From Candidatus Dojkabacteria bacterium (lineage in GTDB: Bacteria > Patescibacteriota > Dojkabacteria > B142 > JAFGFJ01): a stretch of 64,000 bases of DNA. This document shows positions 49,337-63,094 of the stretch, in pieces; positions within the stretch are counted from its first letter, which is position 1; every line of letters begins with the position of its first letter. The position numbers and the translations under genes are program-made. Under the pieces are notes generated by a model, which saw nothing but the letters and a program-made list of their open reading frames with translations, did no database searches and was not told the origin of the DNA. The stretch covers positions 7,050-71,049 of the forward strand of contig JAFGFJ010000001.1 in NCBI GenBank assembly GCA_016931155.1, in the 5' to 3' direction.

Positions 49337-50092
49337 TTGATGGCAGACAATAATAAACCGAAAAAGAATCCTGTTGGAAAACAAAAGACAAAGAGTGAGG
49401 ATGTTGTTATAAGCGAGAATGCGAATATGAAAGAAATACCTGAGAATCCAACTGGAAAAACAATCAAACAAAAAGCTAAAGCCAGAGCTGAAGCCGAGAA
49501 AATGAGTAAAGAAGTAGAAAAAACAGAGACTGCTGAGAAAAAAGAAAAGAAGCCAAAAAAAACGAATCCAGATGCAAAATGGTACGTTTTAAATACATAT
49601 TCAGGACACGAAAAGAAGGTTGCACAGCTCATTGATCAACGAGTTAAAGCAAATGAACTTGAGAATAAAATTCTGGAAGTAATGGTTCCCACCCAGGAGA
49701 AAATCCTTGTAAGCGAAGGAAAGAAAAAGACACTTGAGGAAAAAATATTTCCCGGGTATGTCCTTGTTCAAATGGTAATGAATGATGACACATGGTATCT
49801 AATCCGAAATACCGAAGGGGTTACTGGGTTTGTTGGAACACAGCGAAAACCAACCCCCCTTACTGAAGAAGAGGTAAAAGGAATTCTGGCGTTCTCTGAG
49901 CTTCAGCAGCCATCATTTCAGGCATCATTTGCCGTTGACGACCCTGTTAAAGTTACTGACGGTCCATTCAAAGATTTTGTCGGTACTATTTCTGAAATAA
50001 ATGAAGATAAAGGACAGGTCAAAGTTCTTCTTTCAGTATTTGGAAGAGAAACTCCTGTTGTTCTAGACTTTCTACAAGTTTCTAAATTATAA
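49337..50092 (+). CDS. nusG: Transcription termination/antitermination factor NusG with a ~70-aa Lys/Glu-rich N-terminal extension
   Basis: NGN domain (KWYVLNTYSGHEKKVAQLI...FPGYVLVQM), KOW domain (VKVTDGPFKDFVGTISEINEDKGQVKVLLSVFGRETPV). Confidence 0.85.
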   Translation: MMADNNKPKKNPVGKQKTKSEDVVISENANMKEIPENPTGKTIKQKAKARAEAEKMSKEVEKTETAEKKEKKPKKTNPDAKWYVLNTYSGHEKKVAQLIDQRVKANELENKILEVMVPTQEKILVSEGKKKTLEEKIFPGYVLVQMVMNDDTWYLIRNTEGVTGFVGTQRKPTPLTEEEVKGILAFSELQQPSFQASFAVDDPVKVTDGPFKDFVGTISEINEDKGQVKVLLSVFGRETPVVLDFLQVSKL

Positions 50093-51278: not shown

Positions 51279-51893
51279 CTATGGTTCTATATCTAGTAGA
51301 TTTTCAAGAAGAGACAATTGCTCAGCCAGTGAACTACTATACTTTTCCTCAATTGATTTACTCAACACTTTACAAAGCTCCTCAGCCGATACTTCTCTGT
51401 AAAAACAGTATTCTTCTTTTACACGCATAGAAGGAATATATGCATAACTCATATTTCCTTTTTCATCCCTAAGTTCTAACATAGCTGAATTGTATTGAGG
51501 TTCCTGCCCAGTGAGGCGTGAGGCTAAATCAGTCAAGTAAAGCCTGGGATGCTCCCCAATATCTCTCCCACTCCCATTTGTATCTTCTCTTGTTATTTGT
51601 ATTTCGATTAGCCCAGGTAAACCATCATTGAGATACAAACTGATAAATGCACCTGGAAAAGAGGCAGAAACAGGTTTACATTTTTTAACCGTATGATTTC
51701 TGATACTTATTGCATTAATTTCTAATCCTCCAGAGACTTGATATGAATCTGGATCTAAATCTGGTTCTGAACTATTGTTTTCTCCGAAAAAGCAAGCACT
51801 TATCACCACAGGAGGTTTAAAATATTTTGTTGTTATACCAAAATCATCTATTGTTCTATAACCTTCTTTTGTGCCATTTATTTGATCCTTCAT
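51279..51893 (-). CDS. Hypothetical protein encoded antisense between rplA and rplJ
   Basis: 204-aa ORF with protein-like composition. It occupies the position where an rplJ leader/promoter normally lies. No motif was identified. Confidence 0.4.
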   Translation of the reverse strand: MKDQINGTKEGYRTIDDFGITTKYFKPPVVISACFFGENNSSEPDLDPDSYQVSGGLEINAISIRNHTVKKCKPVSASFPGAFISLYLNDGLPGLIEIQITREDTNGSGRDIGEHPRLYLTDLASRLTGQEPQYNSAMLELRDEKGNMSYAYIPSMRVKEEYCFYREVSAEELCKVLSKSIEEKYSSSLAEQLSLLENLLDIEP

Positions 51894-52798: not shown

Positions 52799-53272
52799 AT
52801 GTCAGACGAAGCAAAAAAGACCGAAGCCGCAGAAGCAAAGGCTGAAGCTAAAGCCGAGGCAAAGGAAGAAAAGAAAGACACAGTTGAGCTGAAAGGTGAT
52901 CAAAAAAAGATTGCCGAGATGATCGAAAAGATGTCTGTTCTTGAGCTTTCCGAGCTTGTAAAAGCTCTTGAAGATAAGTTTGGTGTTTCTGCAGCAGCAC
53001 CCGCAGCTATGATGGCTATGCCTGCAGCAGGAGGAGAGACAGAGAAGCCAGAAGAAGAAAAGACAATCTTTGATATTATTCTTCAAGAAGCTGGAAGCAA
53101 TATGATTGCAGTAATAAAAGCTGTCAAGAACGCAACCGGACTTGGACTTAAGGAGGCAAAGGATCTTGTAGAAGGAGCACCTAAACCTGTAAAGGAAGGA
53201 GCACCTAAGGAAGAAGCTGAAGCTCTAAAGAAAGAATTGGAAGAGGCTGGGGCAAAGGTAGAATTGAAATAA
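52799..53272 (+). CDS. rplL: 50S ribosomal protein L7/L12
   Basis: N-terminal dimerisation helix, Ala/Glu-rich hinge, and C-terminal domain ([21 protein letters not shown]...[10 protein letters not shown]). Confidence 0.9.
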
Positions 53273-53302
53273 GCCTACCAAGCAATAAGCTAAAAAACAG
53301 AA

Positions 53303-53336
53303 CCCTGATGTACAAAGCGTCAGGGTTTTTTGTTTC
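53303..53336 (+). terminator. Rho-independent terminator downstream of rplL
   Basis: aaccctgatgtacaaagcgtcagggttttttgtttctt: a 7-bp GC-containing stem plus a U-tract. Confidence 0.65.
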
Positions 53337-53388: not shown

Positions 53389-54093
53389 ATGAAAGAAATC
53401 ACGTTGTTCCTTTTAGAAAACGGTGTTAGAGAGGAAACCTTGATACTGCTTTTGATGCTTCCGATTATAAGTACAGTTATAGGATTTGGCAGGCATTTCG
53501 TCGGGATAAGAACAATTGGAATATACACCGCAATCGTCCTGACTTATGCTTTCTATCTACTGGGCATCACTGAGACTAACGGACCAAGCAATATTCTTCT
53601 GGGAATGAGACTCGGAATCGGCATAACGGTTGCAGTATATGCCATTGCTTCCATTGGACAGCTAATGACAAAAAAAATCAGGCTTCATTATCAACCAAAG
53701 CTTGCAATTATTATCTCAATAATTGCAATACTTGCATTTATTGCTCTACTTCTTTTTGCAAAATTTGGACAAGTGACTATTACAAGAGTAAATGCTATAG
53801 CAATTATTTTAATAGTAACAACATCTGAACAGTTTATAAGCAGTTTTGTTAAGAAAAATTTTTCCTCTGCGGTGCTTTTAAGCTTTGAGACAATGATAGT
53901 TTCTCTGATTTGTTATTCTCTGATTTCATGGCCAAGCCTCCAAAATTTCATACTTACCTACCCTATCGTTGCTACTCTGGCAATCCCTTTCAATCTGATT
54001 ATAGGCAAATTCACAGGACTTAGACTTAAAGAACACCTGCGCTTCAGAGATTTACTAAATAATAATGAGCCTGGCAACGATTCTCAACAATAG
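53389..54093 (+). CDS. Seven-TM membrane protein, first gene of the ATP-grasp island. Resembles the 7TM module that accompanies RimK-related ligase systems.
   Basis: Seven hydrophobic helices are predicted by eye and there is no soluble domain. Its stop overlaps the start of the next gene by 29 nt. Confidence 0.55.
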   Translation: MKEITLFLLENGVREETLILLLMLPIISTVIGFGRHFVGIRTIGIYTAIVLTYAFYLLGITETNGPSNILLGMRLGIGITVAVYAIASIGQLMTKKIRLHYQPKLAIIISIIAILAFIALLLFAKFGQVTITRVNAIAIILIVTTSEQFISSFVKKNFSSAVLLSFETMIVSLICYSLISWPSLQNFILTYPIVATLAIPFNLIIGKFTGLRLKEHLRFRDLLNNNEPGNDSQQ

Positions 54094-55516
54094 AAAAAAA
54101 ATTCTCGGTCTAAACGAGAGGAACCTTAAGTATATCCGACCTTTCAATAAAAAAAAGGCTAAATTGATTGCGGATAATAAGCTCCTTACCAAGAAATATC
54201 TGGAGAAGGCAGGAATCCCTATTCCGAAACTTCTGGCAGTCATTAAAAATGAAGAAGAGCTTGAAAATTTCGATTGGGATTCACTGCCAAAAAGCTTTGT
54301 TGTAAAGCCTGTTATGGGACATGAAGGAGGCGGAATAGAAATTTTTTACAACAAAGATAACAAGGGAAGATGGATAAGGGCGGACAAAAGTAAAGTAAAT
54401 CTGTCGGAGCTTAAGGCATACATCTTTGACATTCTGGATGGGAAATACTCATTGCACAATACACCAGATATGGCCTTTTTCGAAGAAAGAGTAAAACTAC
54501 ATAAAAGATTTAGATACCACACCTACAAAGGAGCCCCGGATGTTCGCATAAATATCTTCAATAATATTCCTATCATGGCATATATCAGGTTTCCAACAAG
54601 AGAATCCCGGGGAAAAGCGAATATGGCAATGGGAGCAATTGGTACAGGAATAGATATGGCTAGCGGAGTTACCACCACTTCAGTTTACGGAAAAGGGAGT
54701 GGAGGAAGAGGAACACCGATTGAATGTGTACCTGGTACGAAAATCAGGCTTGCAGGACTTAAGATTCCTTATTGGAATAAAATGCTGCGTTATGCCATTG
54801 AAGTTCAAAAAATTACAAAACTGGGTTATGCCGCAGTCGACTTTCTTTTGGACAGGGATCTTGGACCACTTGTAGTTGAAATAAATGCCCGCCCGGGTCT
54901 TTCCGGGCAGATTGCAAATCAAGATGGACTTGCCTGGAGGCTCAAAAAAGTCGCAGGACTCAAAATAAAGACCGTAGAGAAAGGTGTGAGACTGGCAAAA
55001 GATCTTTTTGGAGGCGAAATTGAAGAGGAAATCGAAAGTATCTCGGGAAAAGAAGTAATAGGGATTTATGAGACCGTCATACTCATAGGAAAAGAAGGTA
55101 AAGAGCTCGAGAGAAAAGCAAAGATAGATACAGGAGCTGATAGTACTTCTATTGATATAGAACTGATAAAACAGCTTGGATATGAAGATCTGGTGAAAGA
55201 GATTGAGTCTAAAGCTATTCCAGATAATATGAATAGAGACGAAGGACTTGAGCTTGCCAGAAAACTTGAGGCAGATCTTTTGCCGAAATATCCAGAAATT
55301 GCTTATCTGGCATATATAAAGTCCAGTCATGGGACAAGTGTAAGACCGAGTATAAAGATTTCTTTAAGGCTGGGAGATACACAGTTTGAAACTACGGCAA
55401 CAATTTATGATAGAAGTAAATTAACCTACCCCGTAATCGTAGGGAGAAAGTCTCTTTCAAGGTTCTTGGTCGATCCAACAAAAACTCGACCCTTCAGCGG
55501 AGAACAAAAAAAATAA
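54065..55516 (+). CDS. ATP-grasp ligase (RimK-related / sugar-transfer-associated type) fused to a C-terminal retropepsin-like aspartic peptidase domain (DTGA)
   Basis: ATP-grasp motifs FVVKPVMGHEGGGIEIF, DVRINIF and AAVDFLLDRDLGPLVVEINARPGLSG. The C-terminal ~150 aa carry KIDTGADSTSIDIEL (a clan AA D-T-G-A active-site signature) and ...VIVGRKSL. Confidence 0.65.
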   Translation: MSLATILNNRKKILGLNERNLKYIRPFNKKKAKLIADNKLLTKKYLEKAGIPIPKLLAVIKNEEELENFDWDSLPKSFVVKPVMGHEGGGIEIFYNKDNKGRWIRADKSKVNLSELKAYIFDILDGKYSLHNTPDMAFFEERVKLHKRFRYHTYKGAPDVRINIFNNIPIMAYIRFPTRESRGKANMAMGAIGTGIDMASGVTTTSVYGKGSGGRGTPIECVPGTKIRLAGLKIPYWNKMLRYAIEVQKITKLGYAAVDFLLDRDLGPLVVEINARPGLSGQIANQDGLAWRLKKVAGLKIKTVEKGVRLAKDLFGGEIEEEIESISGKEVIGIYETVILIGKEGKELERKAKIDTGADSTSIDIELIKQLGYEDLVKEIESKAIPDNMNRDEGLELARKLEADLLPKYPEIAYLAYIKSSHGTSVRPSIKISLRLGDTQFETTATIYDRSKLTYPVIVGRKSLSRFLVDPTKTRPFSGEQKK

Positions 55517-55534
55517 TTTTTATAGAGATATAGG

Positions 55535-56443
55535 ATGGTTTCGAATTTATTGTTTATTACATCAACCCTAAAATACAATACATATACCGACAGACAGTTT
55601 TTGACTGAGGCAAAAAATCTGGGGTTAAATGTACTTGCCCTCAACCCAAACGCATTTTCTTATTCAGTGAATAGATCAAATAATTTCATAATATGGAACA
55701 AGGATAAAGAGTTTCATGTACCTCTAGATTCAATAGTCTACAGAAAGTCTATAAGTAAAGCTGGAGTTGGTTTAGAAGATATTCTAAAAAGGTATGGAGC
55801 AACTGGATTTGAAGAAAATCATACTAAGAAAAAAATCAAAGGTATGGAGAAATTTAGTGACTATGTAGCATATGCGGAGGATAATGTAAAAATTCCAAAC
55901 TCATATCTATTAACTAATAAGAATCAAACCACTTATGCAATAGATTATTTTGATGGAAAGTTTCCATTAATAGTGAAAAAAATATCTGGTACCCACGGTA
56001 TTGGAATATTTGTTGCAGAAAGCAAAAGGGCACTTTTACCAATTGTGGAATATCTATTGAATGAAGGAGAACAATCTCCAATAATCATTCAAGAATTCAT
56101 TGAAGCTTCAGAGGGGAAAGACATAAGAATTATTGTTTTGGATGGAAAAGTAGTCAGTGCAGTATTAAGAGATAATACGGGCAAAGACTTTAGATCAAAT
56201 ATTTATCAAGGAGCAAGTCCCAAGCTTATTGAACTCACCCCAGAACAGGAAAAGATAGCTATAAATGCCGCAAAGGCAGTAGGGTTAGAATTTGCCGGTG
56301 TAGATGTGCTTTATGCCAATGAAGGATACGCAATTACTGAGGTCAACTCGCCATGTGATTTTAGTTTTGTTGAACAGACAACAAAGGTTCCCGTAACAAA
56401 AATGCTGATCGAGTATTTAATTAACAAGGCTTCAAATAAATAA
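55535..56443 (+). CDS. rimK: RimK-family alpha-L-glutamate ligase-like ATP-grasp enzyme
   Basis: PLIVKKISGTHGIGIFV, DIRIIVLDGKVV and RSNIYQGASPKLIELTPEQEKIAINAAKAVGLEFAGVDVLYANEGYAITEVNSPCDF are collinear with the RimK C-terminal signature. Confidence 0.7.
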   Translation: MVSNLLFITSTLKYNTYTDRQFLTEAKNLGLNVLALNPNAFSYSVNRSNNFIIWNKDKEFHVPLDSIVYRKSISKAGVGLEDILKRYGATGFEENHTKKKIKGMEKFSDYVAYAEDNVKIPNSYLLTNKNQTTYAIDYFDGKFPLIVKKISGTHGIGIFVAESKRALLPIVEYLLNEGEQSPIIIQEFIEASEGKDIRIIVLDGKVVSAVLRDNTGKDFRSNIYQGASPKLIELTPEQEKIAINAAKAVGLEFAGVDVLYANEGYAITEVNSPCDFSFVEQTTKVPVTKMLIEYLINKASNK

Positions 56444-56466
56444 TTTACGTTGAGAATAATCACGAC

Positions 56467-57417
56467 ATGAAAATACTAGTGCTTTCTACAAGAAAATCTT
56501 CCTCATTCTCTAGCAAGCAAAATGAACTGCTTTATAGAAAATGGGCCGTATACGGTCAGTCCAAAGGCCATGTTATTGCTCTCTCAGGAATAGACTATTT
56601 TGATGAAGTTTCTTTTTCCAAAGCATTCAGTTGGGACAAAAACGGGAACAAAATAGAAGAAACAAATTTTGCTCCTGATGTTATTTATTTAAAAGTTGTG
56701 AGCAGTAAAATATTTGAGAATTACGGTAAACTAAGACTAATCACTTCAAAATTTCCTGCCGTAAATTCTTTGGATTTCGTAATAAGTCTCGAAAGCAAGG
56801 TAAATCAGAGCTTAATGTTTAAAGAATATTTGCCCGAGACTTTTATAGTTACCAATTCCCACCAAATTGAAGAGATATTAAATTCAAATGACAAAGACTA
56901 TTTGTTAAAACCTGATTTATCTACTGGAGGACAAAACATATTGTTCCTCAGAAAGAACAAATACCCTAGAGACATTAGCCATGCTTTTCTAGTCCAGGAA
57001 ATGATAGACAATACCAAAGGTACCCCAGGCATAACAGATGGAAGGCACGACATGCGCTTTATGTTTGTGGGTGGAGAGCTGAAATACGCATTGCTTCGAA
57101 AACCAAAGGGAGATTCATTTTTTGCAAATGCTGCAAAAGGGGGCTCAACTCAGATTCTTGATGCAAAAAAGATAGATAAAGACATCATGAAACTACCGCT
57201 TGAAGTAGCAAAAATAATTCTTTCAAAATGGGGAAAAGATAATATTTTTACAGTGGACGTGATTGTAGGTAAAGGCGAAAAGGTTTACCTTATGGAGGTA
57301 AATACGTTCCCTGGAATTTCCTATATTGACGAATATATGCAATTTACCATGTTCGACTCTTACTTTAATCTATTTTCAAAAATTATTGATTCATATGCAA
57401 ATAAAACCTCAAAGTGA
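56467..57417 (+). CDS. ATP-grasp domain protein (RimK/YheCD-like), third ligase paralog
   Basis: YLLKPDLSTGGQNILFL, FLVQEMID, HDMRFMFVGGELKYALLR, KVYLMEVNTFPGIS (the E-x-N Mg-binding motif). Confidence 0.6.
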   Translation: MKILVLSTRKSSSFSSKQNELLYRKWAVYGQSKGHVIALSGIDYFDEVSFSKAFSWDKNGNKIEETNFAPDVIYLKVVSSKIFENYGKLRLITSKFPAVNSLDFVISLESKVNQSLMFKEYLPETFIVTNSHQIEEILNSNDKDYLLKPDLSTGGQNILFLRKNKYPRDISHAFLVQEMIDNTKGTPGITDGRHDMRFMFVGGELKYALLRKPKGDSFFANAAKGGSTQILDAKKIDKDIMKLPLEVAKIILSKWGKDNIFTVDVIVGKGEKVYLMEVNTFPGISYIDEYMQFTMFDSYFNLFSKIIDSYANKTSK

Positions 57418-58396
57418 AAAATTCAATGCTGATCTTTATCTTTCTGCAGCAGAAGAGCTTGGACTAAAATCTGAAGTCCTAAATGAAAGAGTCGGCTTCT
57501 GCAGAATTTATACAGACAATAATGAGCTCTACATAAAGAACACAAGTCTCAGCTGTAATGATATGGTTGCAATGAGCTTTGCTATGGACAAAAATCTCTC
57601 CCTTGATATTCTAGGAAAAGCAGGAATACCTGTACCAAAACAAGAACTTTTCACAGCAGATGAAGAAGCTGAACCGGGAGACCCTATCAATAGAACTCCA
57701 ATACTCGAGTATGCCAAATCCCATTTCCCACTCGTGGTCAAACCACTGAAGGGGGCAGGAGGAAAAGGAGTTTTCATTGCAGTAAATTCACTTGATGAAG
57801 TAAATTTAGCACTCAATGAAATAGAAAGGCTAAAATACCAGGATGTACTTATTGAAAATTATGTCAAAGGTAAAGACTATCGCATACTAGTTGCCAACGG
57901 GAAAGTAGTTGATATTTTGGAGAGGATACAGGCTTTTGTAATAGGAAATGGGAAAAAGACAGTAAGCGAGTTGATAAAAGAAAAAAATAAAATTCGAGAA
58001 GCAATGAGAGTAAATCCTGTCAAAGTTGATGACAAACTACATAACCATTTGTCGAAACAGTCTAGGTCGGTATCAAATATACCGGCAGAAGGAGAAAAAG
58101 TAGTACTCAGACCAAATTGTAACTTTTCAGAAGGGGGAGAAACACACAGAATAGATATACAAATTATAAAGCAGGACGACATAGATATGTTTCTTAAGGT
58201 CGCAAAAGTAAGCCGGCTAGGACTTTGTGCAATAGATTATATTACCCCAGATATCACTAAATCTTATAAAGAGGTCCAGACAATAATAAATGAAATCAAC
58301 GGTAGTCCAAGCATGGACATACATTATTACGCAGATACGAAGGAAGATCTTCAGGTGATAAAGGATATTCTTATTTCTATTTTAAAGGTTAGCTGA
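57395..58396 (+). CDS. Standalone cyanophycin-synthetase-like ATP-grasp domain protein. The likely start is MQIKPQ at 57395; the annotated ORF starts at 57326 and overlaps the previous gene.
   Basis: Collinear with the CphA ATP-grasp domain: ILGKAGIPVPKQE, VVKPLKGAGGKGVFIAV, GKDYRILVANGKVVDILERIQAFVIGNGKKTVSELI, AEGEKVVLRPNCNFSEGGE, GLCAIDYI. There is no Mur-ligase-like C-terminal domain. Confidence 0.65.
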   Translation: MQIKPQSEKFNADLYLSAAEELGLKSEVLNERVGFCRIYTDNNELYIKNTSLSCNDMVAMSFAMDKNLSLDILGKAGIPVPKQELFTADEEAEPGDPINRTPILEYAKSHFPLVVKPLKGAGGKGVFIAVNSLDEVNLALNEIERLKYQDVLIENYVKGKDYRILVANGKVVDILERIQAFVIGNGKKTVSELIKEKNKIREAMRVNPVKVDDKLHNHLSKQSRSVSNIPAEGEKVVLRPNCNFSEGGETHRIDIQIIKQDDIDMFLKVAKVSRLGLCAIDYITPDITKSYKEVQTIINEINGSPSMDIHYYADTKEDLQVIKDILISILKVS

Positions 58397-60535
58397 TAAA
58401 TGCTCTGTAAGTGTTTTTAATATCTTAACTCTAACATCCTCTAAAATAATTTCACTTGGTCTCATCTCCGGTAGAACTGCTTTGGACCTATCAAAAAGTC
58501 CAACCTTGTTAAGCTCGGCAAGGGTTTGCAAACTAACTCCACCGATAGCCAATAAATCAGACATTCCTCTATTCGACAACTCTTCAGCAACAAGATTCTG
58601 TTCAATATATGCAAGGGGCTTACTATTGGTAGTATAAGAACTCCAGTTCCCAAATATCCCGGCTCCAGTAAATATTCTTCTAGTATGTTTTACTGCCTCT
58701 TTTACCCCTTCCATTTTTTTCTCTTCGGAAGGAGAAGCTATCCCTTCCATATAATTATCATAGAAGGCCTTTGCACAAGCTTTAAAACTTCTGCCTTTCG
58801 TTCTTTCTTGCACAGCCCTAAAAAGACCTTTACTAACTTTTGCCTCTTGCCCTAGGTATCTTTTCTTAGCTTCTCTTTCCCATGCTATTGCCCCTGCCTC
58901 AGCATTGACTGAACTCCTATCGGTTCCAATATTTTCTGTAATTGCTAAACCAATCCTTGCTTTATTCTCGTGTTGCAGGATATGCATAGTTTCATGATCA
59001 GAAATTGCTATTACTCCTGAAGGTGCAGTTGAGCCAAGTTTCCTAATCTCTCCAGAAGGAATAAAAATTGTCCCTTTTCTGCTATTAACAGAAATTATTG
59101 TTACCCTAGGACTAATAATAACCTGCCACTTGTTATCATCTGCTCTTCCATTCCTATCTGAACTATAGACTGAAGTTGCATCAGTTTCAGGGTCAATTTC
59201 AATAGTTTCATTGGAATCAGTGTTATATTGAGTTTGGGTACTGCTTAAAAGTTCATATCTTCTCAAAACCTTCTTCCAAAGTCCCTCTATTTCCGATGCA
59301 TTCATTTGTATATTTACAATTATTTCTCTCAATTTCGCTGCTGACTCATCACCATATCTCCGCACAAGACTCAGCAGTGACCCGTTCCCCAAAACTTCGG
59401 TCGGAATTAATTCTTTCAAGACAAAAACTTCCTTGGTTAGGTTAGACAACCCCTCAGGAGAAAGAGTATTAGAGAGTTCAGAGTATAAACTACTTGAGAA
59501 CTCACTAGTGTTTTCTCCATCACGGTGAGCAATAGCCAATAGAGTTTGATTCAACGGAGGAATTTCTGTTACCTGACTTGCAGATTTTTTCCTCTTAGAT
59601 AATTCTACAGCTTCATTACTTATTGGCCCATAATTCCCACTGGAAAGTGCCTCTCCTGCTCCTTCTTTAAATCTGTCTAACCGGGCAAGTTTTCTAAGAG
59701 TGGGTGTTTGAGTTTTTGTTTCATCTATGCCTATACCAAAAAAACCTTCTTTCATTACATCAAACAACTCTTGATCTCTCCACCCAGAAGCTTGTTGCTG
59801 TCTTTCAAAATTGATAAATAGTGGGTAAAGATTTGCTATCATTTCATTAGTCCTAAGTGCATGAATGTCTAACAAGGCAAGTTTCGCTTTTGATAAATCC
59901 GAACCATCTTTCTTCAATTCCGCTCTGTATATTTTGTGATAGCGCTTAAGAGCACGGAGCTTTTCAACTTTTTCTGCCAGATTCAATGGATTCTTTATTA
60001 CAACAATTTTGGTTGGATTTCTAATTGATCTTACATCTGAGAAACCACGCCTACGAAAGGCTTCAGTAAACTGATCACCCATGTATTTAGAACTGGCACC
60101 TGAGATTTTGTCTACAACTTGCGTTTCTACCTTTGAATAATCGAAAGAACTCAAAAAAGAAATTATCGCTTCCCGGTCATTAACTTCAGGATCCAATCCT
60201 AAATTATCAACTAAAAGTTTCCTTCCTTCATCTTTCAGAAAATAATCTACATAAAGTTCCACTAAATTTATCTTTATCTTCCATATATGCTCAAGTCCTT
60301 CTGCTGTTACTATCTCCACAACCTCACCCTGATCATTTCTTCTTTCAATCTGAAGTGTTTCTGACCTGGTTAAATTATCTTCAAAACTGAGTGCTTCTGC
60401 TCTTTGATCCGCTGACAACTGTATTTCAGGAGGTCCTGCAATAGCTTCCACATAGGCGCCTATCTTAACCCCTGCTCTTTCCGGAAAAGGGTACCTGGAA
60501 GATTCTGCGATGCCTGATTCTCTTTCCTGTGTCAT
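58382..60535 (-). CDS. Large (717 aa) putative zinc metallopeptidase with an HExxH motif, convergent on the ATP-grasp island and co-oriented with the upstream mreB paralog
   Basis: The motif ISDHETMHILQHEN (H-E-x-x-H) sits in the C-terminal third, followed by Glu-containing segments and a large alpha-helical N-terminal region. No other family could be assigned by eye. Confidence 0.45.
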   Translation of the reverse strand: MTQERESGIAESSRYPFPERAGVKIGAYVEAIAGPPEIQLSADQRAEALSFEDNLTRSETLQIERRNDQGEVVEIVTAEGLEHIWKIKINLVELYVDYFLKDEGRKLLVDNLGLDPEVNDREAIISFLSSFDYSKVETQVVDKISGASSKYMGDQFTEAFRRRGFSDVRSIRNPTKIVVIKNPLNLAEKVEKLRALKRYHKIYRAELKKDGSDLSKAKLALLDIHALRTNEMIANLYPLFINFERQQQASGWRDQELFDVMKEGFFGIGIDETKTQTPTLRKLARLDRFKEGAGEALSSGNYGPISNEAVELSKRKKSASQVTEIPPLNQTLLAIAHRDGENTSEFSSSLYSELSNTLSPEGLSNLTKEVFVLKELIPTEVLGNGSLLSLVRRYGDESAAKLREIIVNIQMNASEIEGLWKKVLRRYELLSSTQTQYNTDSNETIEIDPETDATSVYSSDRNGRADDNKWQVIISPRVTIISVNSRKGTIFIPSGEIRKLGSTAPSGVIAISDHETMHILQHENKARIGLAITENIGTDRSSVNAEAGAIAWEREAKKRYLGQEAKVSKGLFRAVQERTKGRSFKACAKAFYDNYMEGIASPSEEKKMEGVKEAVKHTRRIFTGAGIFGNWSSYTTNSKPLAYIEQNLVAEELSNRGMSDLLAIGGVSLQTLAELNKVGLFDRSKAVLPEMRPSEIILEDVRVKILKTLTEHLSANL

Positions 60536-60562: not shown

Positions 60563-61567
60563 CTAGCTCACCCTCAAACTCCTCTTTATAATTTCAAGAT
60601 TCTGTATTGCTTCGGCAATTCCTTTTATAACAGCATAAATCGGCTCATCGGCAACATAAACAGGAACACCCGTTGCCCTTGTAAATAGTTCATCCATCCC
60701 CCTTAACTGTGCAGTACCTCCTGTCAACACAATTCCACGATCGATAATATCTGAAGCAAGCTCTGGAGGAGTATCTTCAAGAACCTTTTTTATCGACCCG
60801 ATAATCTGATTGAGAGTAAGCTTTATGCCTTCGGCGATATCATTTGAATTGACAACAATTGAGGTTGGAAGCCCTGATGATGCATCACGTCCTTTCACCT
60901 CCATTTCAAGCGGCTTTTCCATATTCATAGCACTTCCTATCTGAATTTTTGCTTTCTCTGCCATTTGCTCACCTATCACAAGATTGAGTTTCTTCCTCAC
61001 CGTATTCATAATTGCCTCATTCACCGCATCCCCTGCAACACGCTTCGAATCAAATCTCACAATACCGTTCATAGAAATAACAGCAATTTCTGAAGTCCCT
61101 CCCCCCATATTTACTATCATGTTCCCGGAAGATGTGCTTATTGGCATTCTTGCTCCAATTGCCGCAGCGATCGACTCCGGGATAAGATAAACCCTGCCTG
61201 CCCCGGCTGAGGATACCGCTTCTATTACAGCTCTTTCCTCCACAGAAGTAACACCAGAAGGAACACTAATCATAACCTCGGGTTTGAAAAGCCTTGATCT
61301 TCCAATAGCTCTATCAAGAAAAGCCTTAAGAAGAGCCTCAGTGAGCTTATAACTTGCAATAACTCCTTGTCTCAAAGGTCTTCTCGCAACAATACCTGTA
61401 GGCACTTTCCCCAGCATTTCCCTCGCCTCCTTCCCAACTGCAAGAATTTTCTTTTCTTCGACAGAAACAGTTACAACAGTAGGCTCTTCGATAACAATTC
61501 CTTTACCCTCAACCCAGACAATTGAGTTTGCCGTACCAAGGTCAATTCCAATTTTTTTGCCCGCCAT
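60563..61567 (-). CDS. Second MreB/Mbl-like actin homolog
   Basis: IGIDLGTANSIVWV, VPSGVTSVEERAVIEA, MIVNMGGGTSEIAVIS, VLTGGTAQLRGMD. Full actin-fold phosphate and adenosine motifs; ~45% identical by eye to the mreB at 43824-44879. Confidence 0.8.
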   Translation of the reverse strand: MAGKKIGIDLGTANSIVWVEGKGIVIEEPTVVTVSVEEKKILAVGKEAREMLGKVPTGIVARRPLRQGVIASYKLTEALLKAFLDRAIGRSRLFKPEVMISVPSGVTSVEERAVIEAVSSAGAGRVYLIPESIAAAIGARMPISTSSGNMIVNMGGGTSEIAVISMNGIVRFDSKRVAGDAVNEAIMNTVRKKLNLVIGEQMAEKAKIQIGSAMNMEKPLEMEVKGRDASSGLPTSIVVNSNDIAEGIKLTLNQIIGSIKKVLEDTPPELASDIIDRGIVLTGGTAQLRGMDELFTRATGVPVYVADEPIYAVIKGIAEAIQNLEIIKRSLRVS

Positions 61568-61627: not shown

Positions 61628-63094
61628 ATGAGCAAGTTTAGGACAATAGTAATTGTTGTGGGAGTAGTTTTGATTTTCACCCTCATCGCAGCTCTGTCAA
61701 TCATCATAGCACAAGGAGGAAAACTCACTCCGGATAGAGGTTTTGTTAAAACGGGAATCATCCGTATAACATCTAAACCTCAAGATGTGAAAGTATATGT
61801 AGATGGAGAAGAAAAGTCGCTCCAGGATAAACAGATTGGAGGACTTGAAGACAGAGAGTATCTCATAACAATCTCCAAGGAAGGTTATTCCACATGGGAA
61901 AGAACCGTCAAGGTCGAACCAGGGATTGTAATAGAAATCTTTGCACAACTTTTTCCCACTTCTCTAAATCTCACCGAAGTCACTAAAACAAATATCGATA
62001 AAGTTTTTTATTCTAAAGATGGACAGTACGCGGTTTACGTGGTCAAAGATTCTGAGATTGGCGGAGACCTGGGAATATGGAAGCTCCGTCTGTCCAAGCC
62101 GACAATTACCATCGTGGGAAACAATAAGCCGATAAAGCTCTCAAATATCACTAGTACAGTCAGAGAAATAGTGAATGCAGATTACGAAATTGAACTGTCA
62201 CCGGACAACCGATTTATTATGATACACAATACTGACACAAATGAGTATTTTATTCTTAATGCTGAACTTTATAACGAGCCAGAAGAAAGTCTCAACAAAG
62301 ATCTCGGTTTTGTGCCGGACAGGGTTGACTGGTTTACTGATTCTACATCGCTTGTTGTAGCAAGGGATAGTACACTTTTTGAATACAATCTTCGAGAGGA
62401 AACCTCCTCACTGATTTCGCTCACTCCAGGCAAGAGACCTGTTTACTCAGTAAACGAAAGTAGAATAATTTTATACAATCACAACAAAAAAACCTTTGAG
62501 TTTTACGATGGAGAAAAAAGCAAGAGCTTGATTGTAGAGAACATTCATTTGCCAGTTGATATTGAGCAGATTCAGGTTTCCGAACTCACTCCAAACCTGT
62601 TAATCTTCGAAACAAACAATACATTTTATTATCTGAACGTAGAGAAAAGCTTTATTAGTGAGATCGGAAAAGATCTGGAATTTGTAGAACTTTCAAGGAG
62701 CGGAAAATCTGCTCTTTTCCTGAAAGAAAAAACCTTGATAAGCTATGAAGTTCGAGAAATTATCAGTGAAAGAAGATTTGAGTCAAAAATTTTTGAAATC
62801 CTGAAGAATTTTGACAAGTCAGTCCAAAAAGCCCGGTGGAGCACTGACTCCGAACACATCGTCATTTCAGGAACAAGAGATAAACTCAAAACAATAGCAA
62901 TATTCGACAAGGAGGGAGAAAATATGAATGAGCTGATAGCAGATAAAAGATTCCAGAACGATTTCTTCAAAGTACCCGCCAATTCTTCTTCGTTGTTTCT
63001 TCTTCTAAATGATGAAGTCAAAGAAAATGGAGAGGATCACATTTTGAGAACAAACCTTTATGAGCTCGACCTTGAAAAACCCTCTGTGAAATAA
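61628..63094 (+). CDS. Membrane-anchored PEGA-domain protein with a C-terminal beta-propeller-like region
   Basis: N-terminal TM (IVIVVGVVLIFTLIAALSIIIA). PEGA-like segment (GIIRITSKPQDVKVYVDGEEKS...YLITISKEGYSTWERTVKVEPG). The rest is repetitive and beta-rich. Confidence 0.5.
   Translation: MSKFRTIVIVVGVVLIFTLIAALSIIIAQGGKLTPDRGFVKTGIIRITSKPQDVKVYVDGEEKSLQDKQIGGLEDREYLITISKEGYSTWERTVKVEPGIVIEIFAQLFPTSLNLTEVTKTNIDKVFYSKDGQYAVYVVKDSEIGGDLGIWKLRLSKPTITIVGNNKPIKLSNITSTVREIVNADYEIELSPDNRFIMIHNTDTNEYFILNAELYNEPEESLNKDLGFVPDRVDWFTDSTSLVVARDSTLFEYNLREETSSLISLTPGKRPVYSVNESRIILYNHNKKTFEFYDGEKSKSLIVENIHLPVDIEQIQVSELTPNLLIFETNNTFYYLNVEKSFISEIGKDLEFVELSRSGKSALFLKEKTLISYEVREIISERRFESKIFEILKNFDKSVQKARWSTDSEHIVISGTRDKLKTIAIFDKEGENMNELIADKRFQNDFFKVPANSSSLFLLLNDEVKENGEDHILRTNLYELDLEKPSVK

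What the first reader, a model, noticed from the sequence alone, without database searches (positions are those of the whole stretch)
57395..58396. Standalone cyanophycin-synthetase-like ATP-grasp domain without the Mur-ligase half
Motif-by-motif collinearity with the CphA ATP-grasp domain: VVKPL.G..G.GV, G.DYR.LV..GKVV, the P-loop-like NxNxSxGG segment, and a D-x-I tail. The protein ends there. CphA needs both its ATP-grasp (Asp-adding) and Mur-ligase-like (Arg-adding) domains. A truncated paralog embedded among RimK-like ligases suggests a polymer or tag made of acidic residues only, or a new substrate.
Basis: partly seen in the sequence, partly recalled or inferred. Interest (0 to 1): 0.6.

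Follow-up and report, generated by a model that had tools for sequence, protein, structure and literature searches.

The report
Stand-alone cyanophycin-synthetase-type ligase in a peptide cassette
The gene is a real, apparently active ATP-dependent peptide-bond ligase whose closest studied relative is one domain of cyanophycin synthetase, but it belongs to its own unstudied family and sits in a conserved ligase, peptidase and membrane-protein cluster of ultrasmall (CPR) bacteria that probably builds and trims an unknown peptide or poly(amino acid).

Summary
Window 57395-58396 (+) encodes a 333-aa protein that is only an ATP-grasp domain of the cyanophycin synthetase (CphA) G-domain type. The CphA profile matches at E 2e-55. 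The AlphaFold model (pLDDT 94) fits CphA1 at TM 0.8, against 0.45-0.54 for Ddl and RimK.

It is not a truncated CphA:
- It fails four CphA hallmarks: no N domain, no M domain, His267 is Gly, Arg458 is Asp.
- It falls outside the CphA1 clade (bootstrap 98).
- It belongs to a large unstudied family of G-only ligases.

The main new result is context. In Dojkabacteria and Saccharibacteria these ligases lie in a conserved cassette:
- an RloB-like 7TM protein;
- an RloC-like ligase fused to a retropepsin or a MATCAP peptidase;
- one or two G-type ligases, sometimes with RimK-type ones;
- a convergent MATCAP peptidase, then mreB.

38 of 80 metagenomic loci carry it. The window is a variant with RimK-type and YheCD-like ligases and an orphan HExxH protein in the MATCAP slot.

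The likely role is C-terminal extension of a peptide or poly(amino acid). The substrate is unknown. No description was found in the literature searched.

The parts
57395..58396 (+). The finding: a 333-aa stand-alone ATP-grasp ligase of the CphA/GshF/Ngg type, with a G-omega module and no N or M domain.
   Evidence: TIGR02068 matches positions 168-467 at E 2.4e-55. The AF2 model has pLDDT 94.3. Foldseek gives TMq 0.79-0.81 to TeCphA1. The catalytic residues K66, K116, R163, R177, D281, E300 and N302 are invariant among 18 homologues, and N243 is conserved in at least 90% of them.
53389..54093 (+). First gene of the cassette: a 7TM membrane protein resembling the membrane part of RloB, with no transglutaminase domain.
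   Evidence: PF14402 7TM_transglut at E 2.2e-13. NF052267 RloB matches positions 312-507 only, 47.9 bits against a cutoff of 900. Orthologues occupy the same position in L013, L020 and L095.
54065..55516 (+). RloC-like ATP-grasp ligase (residues 10-300) fused to a retropepsin-like aspartic peptidase (residues 330-474; a DTGA motif is present).
   Evidence: PF14397 at E 2.7e-57, PF05618 at E 2.3e-9. TIGR02291 gives 241.7 bits (cutoff 314) and RloA3/RimB models also match. It is 54% identical to L013 and 41% to L020.
55535..56443 (+). [quoted passage not shown]
   Evidence: TIGR00768 gives 163 bits, above its cutoff of 143.4. PF08443 matches at E 8e-43.
56467..57417 (+). Fourth ATP-grasp ligase, YheCD/GshB-like and divergent.
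   Evidence: PF14398 at E 1.6e-11 and PF02955 at E 4e-10. No orthologue was found in L013 or L020.
58382..60535 (-). Convergent 717-aa orphan protein with HETMH and a downstream AEAGAIAWE segment. It occupies the slot that holds a MATCAP/QEGLA metallopeptidase in related cassettes. It is a possible divergent metallopeptidase, not proven.
   Evidence: The motif spacing equals the cassette MATCAP consensus HEVGTH...EEGLAtwNE. No significant sequence similarity was found. It has no homologues. The AF2 model has pLDDT 34.
60563..61567 (-). mreB, a conserved neighbour of the cassette (flank, not shown to be functionally part of it).
   Evidence: 58-64% identical to the MreB next to the cassettes in L013 and L020. 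mreB lies convergent downstream in 27 of the 29 RloC-bearing loci that have at least about 2.8 kb of sequence downstream.
61628..63094 (+). PEGA-domain-like protein, a conserved flank after mreB.
   Evidence: 29% identical over 495 aa to L013's 512-aa protein. It weakly matches L020's PEGA protein. L095 has the same arrangement.
53299..53329 (+). Terminator-like hairpin after rplL. It probably marks the upstream boundary of the cassette transcription unit.
   Evidence: A 13-bp stem followed by a T run. This is a consensus match only, and the number of such sites in the region equals the shuffle expectation.

Best explanation
The gene encodes a catalytically competent ATP-grasp carboxylate-amine ligase of the G-omega-bearing clade. 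That clade also holds the G domain of cyanophycin synthetase, the C-terminal module of GshF, and Ngg. The gene belongs to a separate, uncharacterised family that consists of this domain alone.

The characterised relatives are described as sharing one chemistry (from PMC9427784 for CphA1 and GshF; from my own knowledge for Ngg). By analogy, the target most likely binds ATP between its core and lid and phosphorylates the C-terminal alpha-carboxylate of a peptide or N-blocked amino acid to an acyl-phosphate. An incoming amino acid, positioned by the G-omega loop, then attacks and adds one residue.

It does not work alone. It is the last gene of a tightly packed cassette (53389-58396). The other genes encode an RloB-like 7TM membrane protein, an RloC-like ligase fused to a retropepsin-type peptidase, a RimK-family ligase and a YheCD-like ligase. 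A probable metallopeptidase gene faces the cassette.

The cassette as a whole probably makes a non-ribosomal peptide or poly(amino acid), perhaps anionic. Different ligases would add different residues or linkages, the peptidases would trim or turn over the product, and the 7TM protein would tie it to the membrane.

Shown here: homology, fold, intact catalytic residues, conserved gene linkage and domain fusions.
Inferred: the reaction type, cooperation between the ligases, and the nature of the product.
Unknown: the substrates.
For: Homology and fold:
- Profile and structural similarity are strongest to CphA, GshF and Ngg, and much weaker to RimK and Ddl.
- The model is confident (pLDDT 94.3) and aligns over all 333 residues to the TeCphA1 G domain, including G-omega.

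Catalytic residues:
- All ATP, Mg and acyl-phosphate residues defined in TeCphA1 (PMC9427784) are present: K220/K66, K261/K116, R309/R163, R323/R177, N394/N243, D431/D281, E450/E300, N452/N302 (TeCphA1 number / target number).
- Seven are invariant in 18 homologues and N243 is conserved in at least 90%.

Gene layout:
- The genes overlap or lie 18-23 nt apart.

Conserved linkage:
- All five closest homologues with readable context (P0002, P0017, P0018, P0022, P0023; 37-46% identity) lie beside an RloC::retropepsin gene, an RloC::MATCAP gene or a MATCAP gene.
- 38 of 80 metagenomic loci found with family-derived patterns carry the cassette. Of these, 36 have RloC, 29 the 7TM protein, 29 the retropepsin, 27 MATCAP, and 33 have two G-type ligases.
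- The cassette occurs in Saccharibacteria (L003, L004) and in Dojkabacteria (the window and L013).

Fusions that link the partners:
- RimK::G-type (P0133).
- G-type with PGA_cap/CapA, with Mur ligase, and with LPG_synthase_C.

Published background:
- In Pseudomonas, loss of RloB or RloC rescues mutants lacking the RloA peptidases. RloA has a positively charged substrate channel and cleaves RimB substrates in vitro (PMC12239564). This fits a ligase-made anionic peptide that peptidases must remove.
Against: - No substrate or product is known for any member of this family or for any Rlo system.
- The substrate-side residues differ from CphA1 (H267G, R458D, E215S), so specificity cannot be transferred.
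- Deep branches of the tree are unresolved, with bootstraps below 30.
- The window's cassette differs from the common form. It has one G-type ligase rather than two, adds RimK and YheCD-like genes, and has p717 in place of a recognisable MATCAP. The roles may differ accordingly.
- Some family members occur without the cassette (L017, L025 and L048, on contigs of 15-17 kb).
- Conserved order in small CPR genomes can partly reflect inherited synteny rather than function.
Confidence: 0.6

Rival explanations
1. Split cyanophycin synthetase. The protein is the Asp-adding half of a CphA-like system and makes cyanophycin, poly-Asp or a close analogue. The side-chain-adding step is provided in trans or has been lost.
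For: - CphA is the best-scoring characterised family.
- CphA2 shows that a G domain alone can polymerise (PMC10273328, listed).
- Related cassettes contain a protein with the end of an N domain, a G domain and a degenerate M remnant (L020, 565 aa; matches CphA model positions 137-571; the P-loop reads GQSNND instead of GTNGKT).
- L095 has a separate 417-aa Mur ligase whose best hit is the CphA M domain, at E 5e-27.
Against: - The CphA1-specific residues are not conserved: His267 to Gly, Arg458 to Asp, Glu215 to Ser.
- The target lies outside the CphA1 clade, which has bootstrap 98.
- There is no M-like or N-like sequence in the window.
- No cyanophycinase or isoaspartyl dipeptidase was seen among the cassette genes.
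- The M-like partner was found in only 1 of roughly 45 cassette loci.
Confidence: 0.12
2. Small-molecule ligase. Like GshF or Ngg, it makes a di- or tripeptide, for example a compatible solute or a thiol, rather than a polymer or a tag.
For: - GshF and Ngg are the next-closest characterised relatives, and GshF is structurally as close as CphA2.
- In the NJ tree CphA1 groups with GshF rather than with the target family.
- The Rlo system and QEGLA/ATP-grasp genes respond to osmotic conditions (PMC12239564; PMC10308900).
- Large arrays of related ligases occur in Virgibacillus and Halomonas, genera I know as salt-tolerant.
Against: - The constant partners are an endopeptidase-type retropepsin, a MATCAP-type carboxypeptidase and RimK/RloC-type ligases. 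These act on peptide chains.
- Fusions to CapA (PGA_cap) and to Mur ligases point to polymers.
- No GNAT module and no glutamate-cysteine-ligase module is present.
Confidence: 0.15
3. Protein C-terminal tagging cycle. The ligases add residues to the C-terminus of a protein, as RimK does on ribosomal protein S6 or TTL on tubulin. The retropepsin and MATCAP-type peptidases remove them. The target could be a neighbour such as MreB, the 7TM protein or a ribosomal protein.
For: - A RimK-family ligase and MATCAP-family peptidases are part of these cassettes.
- mreB is the conserved neighbour.
- In Dojkabacteria the cassette follows rplJ-rplL.
- Pseudomonas rlo mutants have cell-shape defects (PMC12239564).
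Against: - To my knowledge, no characterised enzyme of the CphA/GshF/Ngg clade modifies a protein.
- MreB C-termini next to cassettes are basic or neutral and variable (...FNREFRR...KSIT...LRVS), and the 7TM tails are not conserved.
- The rplJL linkage is absent in the Saccharibacteria-type locus L020, and a terminator-like hairpin follows rplL in the window.
Confidence: 0.1
4. Inactive remnant. The protein is a degenerate domain kept as a scaffold or regulator of the neighbouring ligases.
For: It lacks the N and M domains, and some substrate-side residues differ from CphA1.
Against: - The ATP, Mg and catalytic residues are invariant or nearly invariant across homologues of 32-46% identity.
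- The fold is predicted with high confidence.
- The family is large and conserved: 201 representatives at E<1e-30.
Confidence: 0.03

Closest known systems
Cyanophycin synthetase 1 (CphA1), G domain (PDB 7wac/7wae, 7lg5; NCBIfam TIGR02068)
   Same: It has the same ATP-grasp fold with Gcore, Glid and G-omega modules (TMq 0.79-0.81). It shares the ATP, Mg and acyl-phosphate residues (K220, K261, R309, R323, N394, S396, D431, E450, N452, H460). CphA1 is the best profile match (E 2.4e-55).
   Different: It has no N domain and no M domain, and scores 188 bits against a cutoff of 850. His267 is Gly, Arg458 is Asp, Glu215 is Ser, and the P-loop reads KGAGGK rather than DGNHGR. It lies outside the CphA1 clade. 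There are no cyanophycin-degradation genes nearby.
Cyanophycin synthetase 2 (CphA2; PDB 7ta5, 8fxh)
   Same: CphA2 is a precedent for a G domain that polymerises without an active M domain. Structural similarity is TMq 0.76. The 565-aa paralogue in Saccharibacteria-type cassettes has a CphA2-like layout.
   Different: CphA2 keeps an N domain and a truncated M domain and is about 630 aa long. The target is 333 aa with neither. Sequence similarity is lower than to CphA1 (E 6e-24).
GshF (GshAB) C-terminal ATP-grasp module (PDB 3ln6, 3ln7) and Ngg (N-acetylglutaminylglutamine synthetase)
   Same: GshF gives TMq 0.77. Both add one amino acid to the alpha-carboxylate of a small acyl-amino acid or dipeptide (GshF per PMC9427784; Ngg from my own knowledge).
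   Different: In both enzymes the domain is fused to a second catalytic module (glutamate-cysteine ligase or GNAT) that makes its substrate. The target is free-standing and is linked to peptidases and RimK/RloC-type ligases.
RloABC operon of Pseudomonas aeruginosa (mBio 2025, PMC12239564) and the RimK/RimB pair
   Same: The neighbours include a 7TM_transglut membrane protein, an ATPgrasp_ST ligase of the TIGR02291 type, a retropepsin-like peptidase and a RimK-family ligase.
   Different: The 7TM protein lacks the inactive transglutaminase domain. The retropepsin is fused to the ligase and so has no N-terminal signal peptide of its own. The RloC-like score is below the family cutoff (242 against 314). 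The G-type ligases, MATCAP and mreB linkage seen here are not part of the three-gene rloABC operon as that paper presents it.
MATCAP / bacterial QEGLA-motif proteins (PF08014, TIGR02421) with ATP-grasp partners
   Same: Related cassettes carry a MATCAP-family metallopeptidase, either free or fused to the RloC-like ligase. A ligase paired with a carboxypeptidase recalls the tubulin TTL/MATCAP cycle (my own knowledge).
   Different: The window itself has no recognisable MATCAP. It has only the orphan p717 in that position, with a collinear but statistically insignificant motif match.

Membership tests
Cyanophycin synthetase CphA1 (TIGR02068 / NF010623) | Full-length profile score at or above the curated cutoff (850 / 877 bits) | tested here: not met
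   188 and 184.6 bits. Only model positions 168-467 are matched.
Cyanophycin synthetase CphA1 (TIGR02068 / NF010623) | ATP-grasp G domain with Gcore, Glid and G-omega modules and intact catalytic residues | tested here: met
Cyanophycin synthetase CphA1 (TIGR02068 / NF010623) | Mur-ligase-like M domain (the Arg-adding site) | tested here: not met
   The protein ends at the end of the G domain. There is no M-like sequence in the 64-kb window.
Cyanophycin synthetase CphA1 (TIGR02068 / NF010623) | N-terminal domain that anchors the polymer | tested here: not met
   The match begins at model position 168, at residue 19 of the protein. No CphA_N hit was found in the window.
Cyanophycin synthetase CphA1 (TIGR02068 / NF010623) | CphA1-specific G-site residues: P-loop His267, Arg458 (alpha-carboxylate of the incoming Asp) and Glu215 (Arg side chain of the primer) (PMC9427784) | tested here: not met
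   The target has Gly122, Asp308 and Ser61 at these positions. Within the stand-alone family the commonest residue at the His267 position is Gly (33%) and at the Arg458 position Asp (38%). The Glu215 equivalent is read from the alignments.
Cyanophycin synthetase CphA1 (TIGR02068 / NF010623) | Placement inside the CphA1 clade | tested here: not met
   In the NJ tree the CphA1 G domains are monophyletic (bootstrap 98) and exclude the target. NJ only; deep nodes are unresolved.
Cyanophycin synthetase 2 (CphA2) | Architecture of N domain, G domain and truncated M domain | tested here: not met
   333 aa, G domain only. A CphA2-like layout is seen in the L020 paralogue, not in the window.
G-omega-type ATP-grasp clade (CphA G / GshF C-terminal module / Ngg) | ATP-grasp fold with the inserted G-omega subdomain ending in the N-x-S-x-G-G loop, and stronger similarity to this clade than to RimK, Ddl or GshB | tested here: met
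   Bit scores are 188, 143 and 108 against 59 for RimK and 43 for Ddl. TMq is 0.76-0.81 against 0.44-0.54. The loop NCNFSEGG is present.
RimK family (TIGR00768) | Profile score at or above 143.4 bits | tested here: not met
   59.2 bits, covering the N-terminal half only. The neighbouring gene 55535-56443 does meet the cutoff, at 163 bits.
RloABC-type system (context of the gene) | RloB: inactive transglutaminase domain fused to a 7TM region | tested here: not met
   Only the 7TM part is present. NF052267 gives 47.9 bits against a cutoff of 900, matching positions 312-507.
RloABC-type system (context of the gene) | RloC: ATP-grasp ligase of the TIGR02291 type | tested here: inconclusive
   It is the best hit at 241.7 bits but falls below the cutoff of 314.2.
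RloABC-type system (context of the gene) | RloA: a separate, secreted retropepsin-like peptidase with a signal peptide | tested here: not met
   The retropepsin domain is fused to the C-terminus of the ligase, at residues 330-474. It therefore has no N-terminal signal peptide of its own.
Any of the above | Biochemical activity: ATP-dependent ligation and the identity of the product | not testable with these tools
   This requires enzyme assays.

The most novel reading that the evidence does not exclude
Many CPR bacteria (Dojkabacteria, Saccharibacteria) carry a previously undescribed modular machine next to mreB. It comprises an RloB-like 7TM protein, three or four different ATP-grasp ligases (RloC-type, CphA-G-type, RimK-type), and a retropepsin and/or a MATCAP metallopeptidase.

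In this reading the machine builds and trims a hetero-poly(amino acid) or peptide tag at the membrane. The product would act in envelope, cell-shape or osmotic homeostasis. The G-only ligases would be the enzymes that add the second kind of monomer.

If so, these cassettes would reveal the still-unknown product class of the Rlo systems of Pseudomonas and Vibrio. They would also define a cyanophycin-independent branch of ATP-grasp amino-acid polymerases.
Probability: 0.2. Interest if true: 0.75.

Novelty: new variant of a known kind. Interest (0 to 1): 0.55.

Why it matters
Four points give this weight.

- The Rlo system was tied in 2025 to osmotic tolerance, cell shape, biofilm formation and antibiotic resistance in Pseudomonas, but its chemistry is unknown. 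The CPR cassettes contain the same core plus extra ligases and peptidases. That narrows the likely product to a ligase-built, peptidase-trimmed peptide or poly(amino acid), and it supplies small proteins suitable for biochemistry.

- It shows that the cyanophycin-synthetase G domain is one branch of a much larger set of G-only and multi-G ligases that remains largely unexplored. These ligases occur fused to CapA, Mur-ligase, acylphosphatase and LPG_synthase_C modules.

- For CPR biology, four ligase genes kept in a very small genome suggest an important product.

- For the gene itself the result is sobering. It is not a broken cyanophycin synthetase, and its substrate cannot be predicted from the sequence.

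Tried and rejected
- **210-domain NJ tree.** Backbone bootstraps were about 0, so it was not used for placement. A 55-taxon tree resolves only the shallow clades.

- **Reading specificity from the pocket.** The acidic residue after the GG of the G-omega loop (E249) looked like a clue to a basic substrate. GshF, which adds glycine, has Asp there, and half of all family domains have Glu or Asp. I dropped the inference. Only R458D remains as a difference, and I do not interpret it.

- **p717 as a MATCAP.** Pfam and NCBIfam give no hit, even at E 10 for Pfam. An HMM built from 31 cassette MATCAPs scores about 0 bits. hhalign gives probability 0.1-0.2%. The protein has no homologues among 5.8 billion proteins. 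The single-sequence AF2 model has pLDDT 34 and is unusable. Only position and motif spacing remain.

- **Alignment A1 for the metagenome scan.** The 18-sequence alignment was too diverse, so a 6-sequence alignment was used.

- **Tn-seq data for the Saccharibacterium Southlakia epibionticum (PMC10633639 supplements).** The term searches of the gene tables found only a RimK / 'RimK/LysX family' pair and no entry named MreB. I did not read all the ATP-grasp entries. I found no fitness data usable for this cassette.

- **Anti-phage defence.** There are no PADLOC hits for any cassette protein.

- **Acidic acceptor tails.** The C-termini of MreB and the 7TM protein show none that is conserved.

- **Literature.** Searches for DUF1704/MATCAP with ATP-grasp, and for cyanophycin or ATP-grasp in CPR bacteria, found nothing on this cassette. 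My guessed PMC id for Iyer et al. 2009 on amidoligases was not held.

- **AFDB fold library.** It was not available.
Full report
**1. The observation**

Window 57395-58396 (+) is an open reading frame of 333 codons.
- The ATG at 57395 overlaps the stop of the upstream gene by 23 nt.
- It gives an N-terminus that matches 17 homologues. The product is identical to an NCBI protein annotated only as 'ATP-grasp domain-containing protein [Candidatus Dojkabacteria bacterium]'.
- The similarity to cyanophycin synthetase is far beyond chance. NCBIfam TIGR02068 matches model positions 168-467 of 862 at E 2.4e-55. CphA1 structures 7wac, 7lgn and 7lg5 match at E 3e-37 to 1e-28.
- The protein covers only the G (ATP-grasp) domain. 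No N or M domain is present, and no CphA-M-like or CphA-N-like sequence exists anywhere in the 64-kb window.

The NxNxSxGG segment is not a P-loop. It is the large loop of the G-omega module, TeCphA1 residues 389-399 (PMC9427784).

**2. What kind of ATP-grasp enzyme it is**

Profile scores fall in a clear order: CphA 188 bits, GshF C-terminal module 143, Ngg 108, RimK family 59, Ddl 43.

An AlphaFold2 model built on 18 homologues is confident (mean pLDDT 94.3, pTM 0.90). Foldseek against the PDB gives:

| Structure | TM-score (normalised to the query) |
|---|---|
| TeCphA1 | 0.79-0.81, over the whole 333 residues |
| CphA2 | 0.76 |
| GshF | 0.77 |
| Ddl, RimK, LysX | 0.44-0.54 (a sharp drop) |

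So the protein belongs to the G-omega-bearing clade of CphA, GshF and Ngg, not to the RimK or Ddl clades.

The second test is whether the motifs are CphA-specific. Here the finding does not pass.
- I used the residue roles defined for TeCphA1 (PMC9427784).
- The ATP, Mg and acyl-phosphate residues are all present in the target: K220, K261, R309, R323, N394, S396, G398-G399, D431, E450, N452, H460.
- They are equally present in GshF and Ngg, apart from Ser396 (His in Ngg). Many are present in the window's own RimK.
- The residues that distinguish CphA1 are not conserved. P-loop His267 is Gly122. Arg458, which holds the alpha-carboxylate of the incoming aspartate, is Asp308. Glu215 is Ser61. The P-loop reads KGAGGK instead of DGNHGR.

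**3. It is a member of a large G-only family, not a truncated CphA**

An exhaustive search of 1.84 billion representative proteins found 8080 relatives at E<1e-3 and 201 at E<1e-30.
- The best hits are dominated by proteins of 310-370 aa with the same single-domain layout.
- A typical full-length CphA (P0163, 891 aa) scores only 133 bits, against 140-280 bits for the G-only proteins.
- The remainder are multidomain proteins with two or three tandem G-type domains. These are often fused to acylphosphatase, LPG_synthase_C, PGA_cap (CapA) or Mur-ligase domains.

In a 55-taxon neighbour-joining tree with 200 bootstraps:
- CphA1 G domains form a clade (bootstrap 98) that excludes the target and groups with GshF (bootstrap 67).
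- The target sits with Dojkabacteria homologues and other G-only proteins.
- Deep nodes are unresolved (bootstraps below 30), as they were in a 210-taxon tree.

The catalytic residues are invariant, or conserved in at least 90%, among 18 homologues of 32-46% identity. An inactive remnant is therefore unlikely.

**4. The genomic context is the main new result**

In the window the gene is the last of five tightly packed genes on the + strand. They overlap or lie 18-23 nt apart. They follow rplJ-rplL and a terminator-like hairpin.

| Coordinates | Strand | Product |
|---|---|---|
| 53389-54093 | + | 7TM protein matching only the membrane part of RloB |
| 54065-55516 | + | RloC-like ATP-grasp ligase (TIGR02291-type) fused to a retropepsin-like peptidase with a DTGA motif |
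| 55535-56443 | + | RimK-family ligase, above its curated cutoff |
| 56467-57417 | + | Divergent YheCD/GshB-like ATP-grasp |
| 57395-58396 | + | The target |
| 58382-60535 | - | Convergent 717-aa orphan protein with an HExxH motif |
| 60563-61567 | - | mreB |
| 61628-63094 | + | PEGA-like protein |

The rloABC operon was described in 2025 in Pseudomonas aeruginosa (PMC12239564).
- The secreted RloA retropepsins are needed for hypo-osmotic tolerance, biofilm formation, antibiotic resistance and normal cell shape.
- Deleting rloB or rloC rescues the protease mutants.
- The chemistry is unknown.

**5. The linkage is conserved**

All five closest homologues with readable context lie beside a cassette gene:

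| Homologue | Locus | Context |
|---|---|---|
| P0002 (43% identity) | L001 | Directly follows an RloC::retropepsin gene |
| P0017 and P0023 | L013, another Dojkabacteria genome | rplJ-rplL, then 7TM, then RloC-like ligase fused to a MATCAP peptidase, then two G-only ligases, then convergent mreB. This is the same chromosomal slot as the window. |
| P0018 | L014 | Followed by a MATCAP gene and a U32 peptidase |
| P0022 | L095 | 7TM, RloC::retropepsin, a stand-alone Mur ligase, RimK, the G-only ligase, then convergent mreB |

A metagenome scan with family-derived patterns returned 80 loci. They divide as follows:
- 38 carry the cassette. Of these, 36 have RloC, 29 the 7TM protein, 29 the retropepsin and 27 a MATCAP-like gene, and 33 have two G-type ligases.
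- 31 are ordinary CphA genes with flanking N and M domains.
- 1 is GshF.
- 10 are other, 7 of them on contigs shorter than 4 kb.

A representative cassette, L020, reads as follows: 7TM, RloC::retropepsin, G-only ligase (324 aa), a 565-aa G-type protein, a RimK-like ligase, then a convergent MATCAP/QEGLA protein (PF08014 at E 9e-30; TIGR02421), then mreB and a PEGA protein.

Two genome records place the cassette in Saccharibacteria (L003, L004). mreB lies convergent downstream in 27 of the 29 RloC-bearing loci that have enough downstream sequence. The varied MreB tails show that these loci come from many lineages.

Domain fusions link the partners directly. P0133 is RimK::G-type. P0100 is G-type with a RimK-like domain and CapA. 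P0154 is G-type with two Mur-ligase units and CapA.

**6. How far the CphA kinship goes**

Two observations favour real evolutionary kinship between the cassette ligases and CphA.
- The 565-aa paralogue of Saccharibacteria-type cassettes matches the CphA model from position 137 to 571. That spans the end of the N domain, the G domain and the start of the M domain. Its Mur-ligase P-loop is degenerate (VVVGQSNNDV). This layout is reminiscent of CphA2.
- In L095 the cassette contains a separate 417-aa Mur ligase. Its best hit is the CphA M domain (TIGR02068 positions 559-860, E 5e-27), ahead of MurE.

The M-like gene was found in only that one locus, and the window has none. The 'split cyanophycin synthetase' reading therefore stays a minority rival.

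**7. Mechanism proposed**

- Shown: the fold, the intact catalytic apparatus, operon-like packing, conserved linkage to ligases and peptidases, and the fusions.
- Inferred from the characterised clade members (CphA1 and GshF per PMC9427784; Ngg from my own knowledge): the enzyme phosphorylates a C-terminal alpha-carboxylate of a peptide-like acceptor and adds one amino acid.
- Inferred from context: it works alongside the RloC-like, RimK and YheCD-like ligases on a common product. That product would be a non-ribosomal peptide or poly(amino acid). The retropepsin domain and a metallopeptidase would trim it, and the 7TM protein would handle it at the membrane.

An anionic product fits three published or observed points:
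- the positively charged RloA channel and its cleavage of RimB substrates in vitro (PMC12239564);
- the CapA fusions;
- strong induction of RimK and of a QEGLA protein encoded next to a gene annotated GshB at low salinity in Photobacterium (PMC10308900).

The substrate of the target itself remains unknown. I considered and dropped a pocket-charge argument.

**8. The 717-aa neighbour**

It sits exactly where the MATCAP gene sits in the related cassettes. Its HE...(31 residues)...E-x-G...W-E spacing matches the cassette MATCAP consensus HEVGTH...EEGLAtwNE. hhalign aligns the two collinearly over 205 columns.

However:
- the scores are insignificant;
- it has no homologues in the large database;
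- its single-sequence model is unusable (pLDDT 34).

I record it as a possible divergent metallopeptidase, not as a finding.

**9. Verdict**

The finding is real, and more interesting in its context than in itself. The gene is a new member of the CphA/GshF/Ngg-type ATP-grasp clade and belongs to an uncharacterised G-only family. It is not a truncated cyanophycin synthetase, and there is no evidence that it adds acidic residues.

The cassette it belongs to is a new variant of the RimK/Rlo kind of ligase-peptidase system. It is enriched in CphA-type ligases and MATCAP peptidases, is widespread in two CPR lineages, and is linked to mreB. I found no description of it in the literature I could search.

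Noticed in passing
window 58382-60535 (-): A 717-aa orphan protein with no homologue among 5.8 billion proteins and no Pfam or NCBIfam hit. It has HETMH followed by AEAGAIAWE with the same spacing as the MATCAP/QEGLA zinc-binding motifs, and it sits in the MATCAP slot of related cassettes. It may be a very divergent metallopeptidase.
   Followed up: partly
L095 2217-3470 (+): A Dojkabacteria-like cassette contains a stand-alone 417-aa Mur-ligase protein. Its best family match is the M domain of cyanophycin synthetase (E 5e-27), ahead of MurE. This would be a G domain and an M domain encoded as separate genes in one cassette. It was seen in only this one locus.
   Followed up: partly
L020 8735-10432 (+), and the equivalent gene in about 33 cassette loci: The second G-type ligase of Saccharibacteria-type cassettes is 565 aa and matches the CphA model from position 137 to 571. 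It covers the N-domain end, the G domain and an M-domain start with a degenerate P-loop. This is a CphA2-like architecture outside cyanobacteria.
   Followed up: partly
window 60563-61567 (-); L003, L013, L018, L020 and others: mreB lies convergent immediately downstream of the cassette in 27 of the 29 RloC-bearing loci with enough sequence, in both Dojkabacteria and Saccharibacteria. Pseudomonas rlo mutants have cell-shape defects. MreB C-termini show no conserved acidic acceptor.
   Followed up: partly
L005 4600-11500 (Virgibacillus oceani); L006 9200-19700 (Halomonas heilongjiangensis): There are arrays of four (Virgibacillus) and six (Halomonas) G-type ligase domains encoded in a row. The three single-domain genes I scanned are fused to an acylphosphatase domain. 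One Halomonas protein carries two G-type domains around a CapA (PGA_cap) domain. I know both genera as salt-tolerant. This may be an ATP-grasp-based assembly system for peptides or poly(amino acids).
   Followed up: partly
P0133, P0100, P0154, P0016, P0048, P0069 (proteins): These are fusion proteins that join G-type ligase domains to RimK, CapA, Mur ligase, acylphosphatase and LPG_synthase_C (aminoacyl-tRNA-dependent transferase-like) modules. L096 places a Mur-ligase::CapA protein next to a triple-G-domain protein.
   Followed up: partly
L013 6533-8962 (+): In a second Dojkabacteria genome the RloC-like ligase is fused to a MATCAP peptidase instead of a retropepsin. The two peptidase types look interchangeable modules on the same ligase.
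   Followed up: partly
window 51279-51893 (-): A 204-aa ORF on the opposite strand lies between rplA and rplJ and has no Pfam or NCBIfam match. Whether it is a real gene is unknown.
   Followed up: no
window 52799-53272 (+) and 49337-50092 (+): As called, L7/L12 (157 aa) and NusG (251 aa, TTG start) carry Lys/Glu/Ala-rich N-terminal extensions compared with typical bacterial versions. L013 also has a long L12 (187 aa). Start codons were not verified.
   Followed up: no
literature: PMC10308900: In Photobacterium damselae, low salinity induces RimK 52-fold and a QEGLA-motif (MATCAP family) protein 27-fold. The QEGLA gene is encoded next to a gene annotated GshB, which also appears in the paper's table of regulated genes. 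This is an osmotic link for ligase and MATCAP modules outside the CPR.
   Followed up: no
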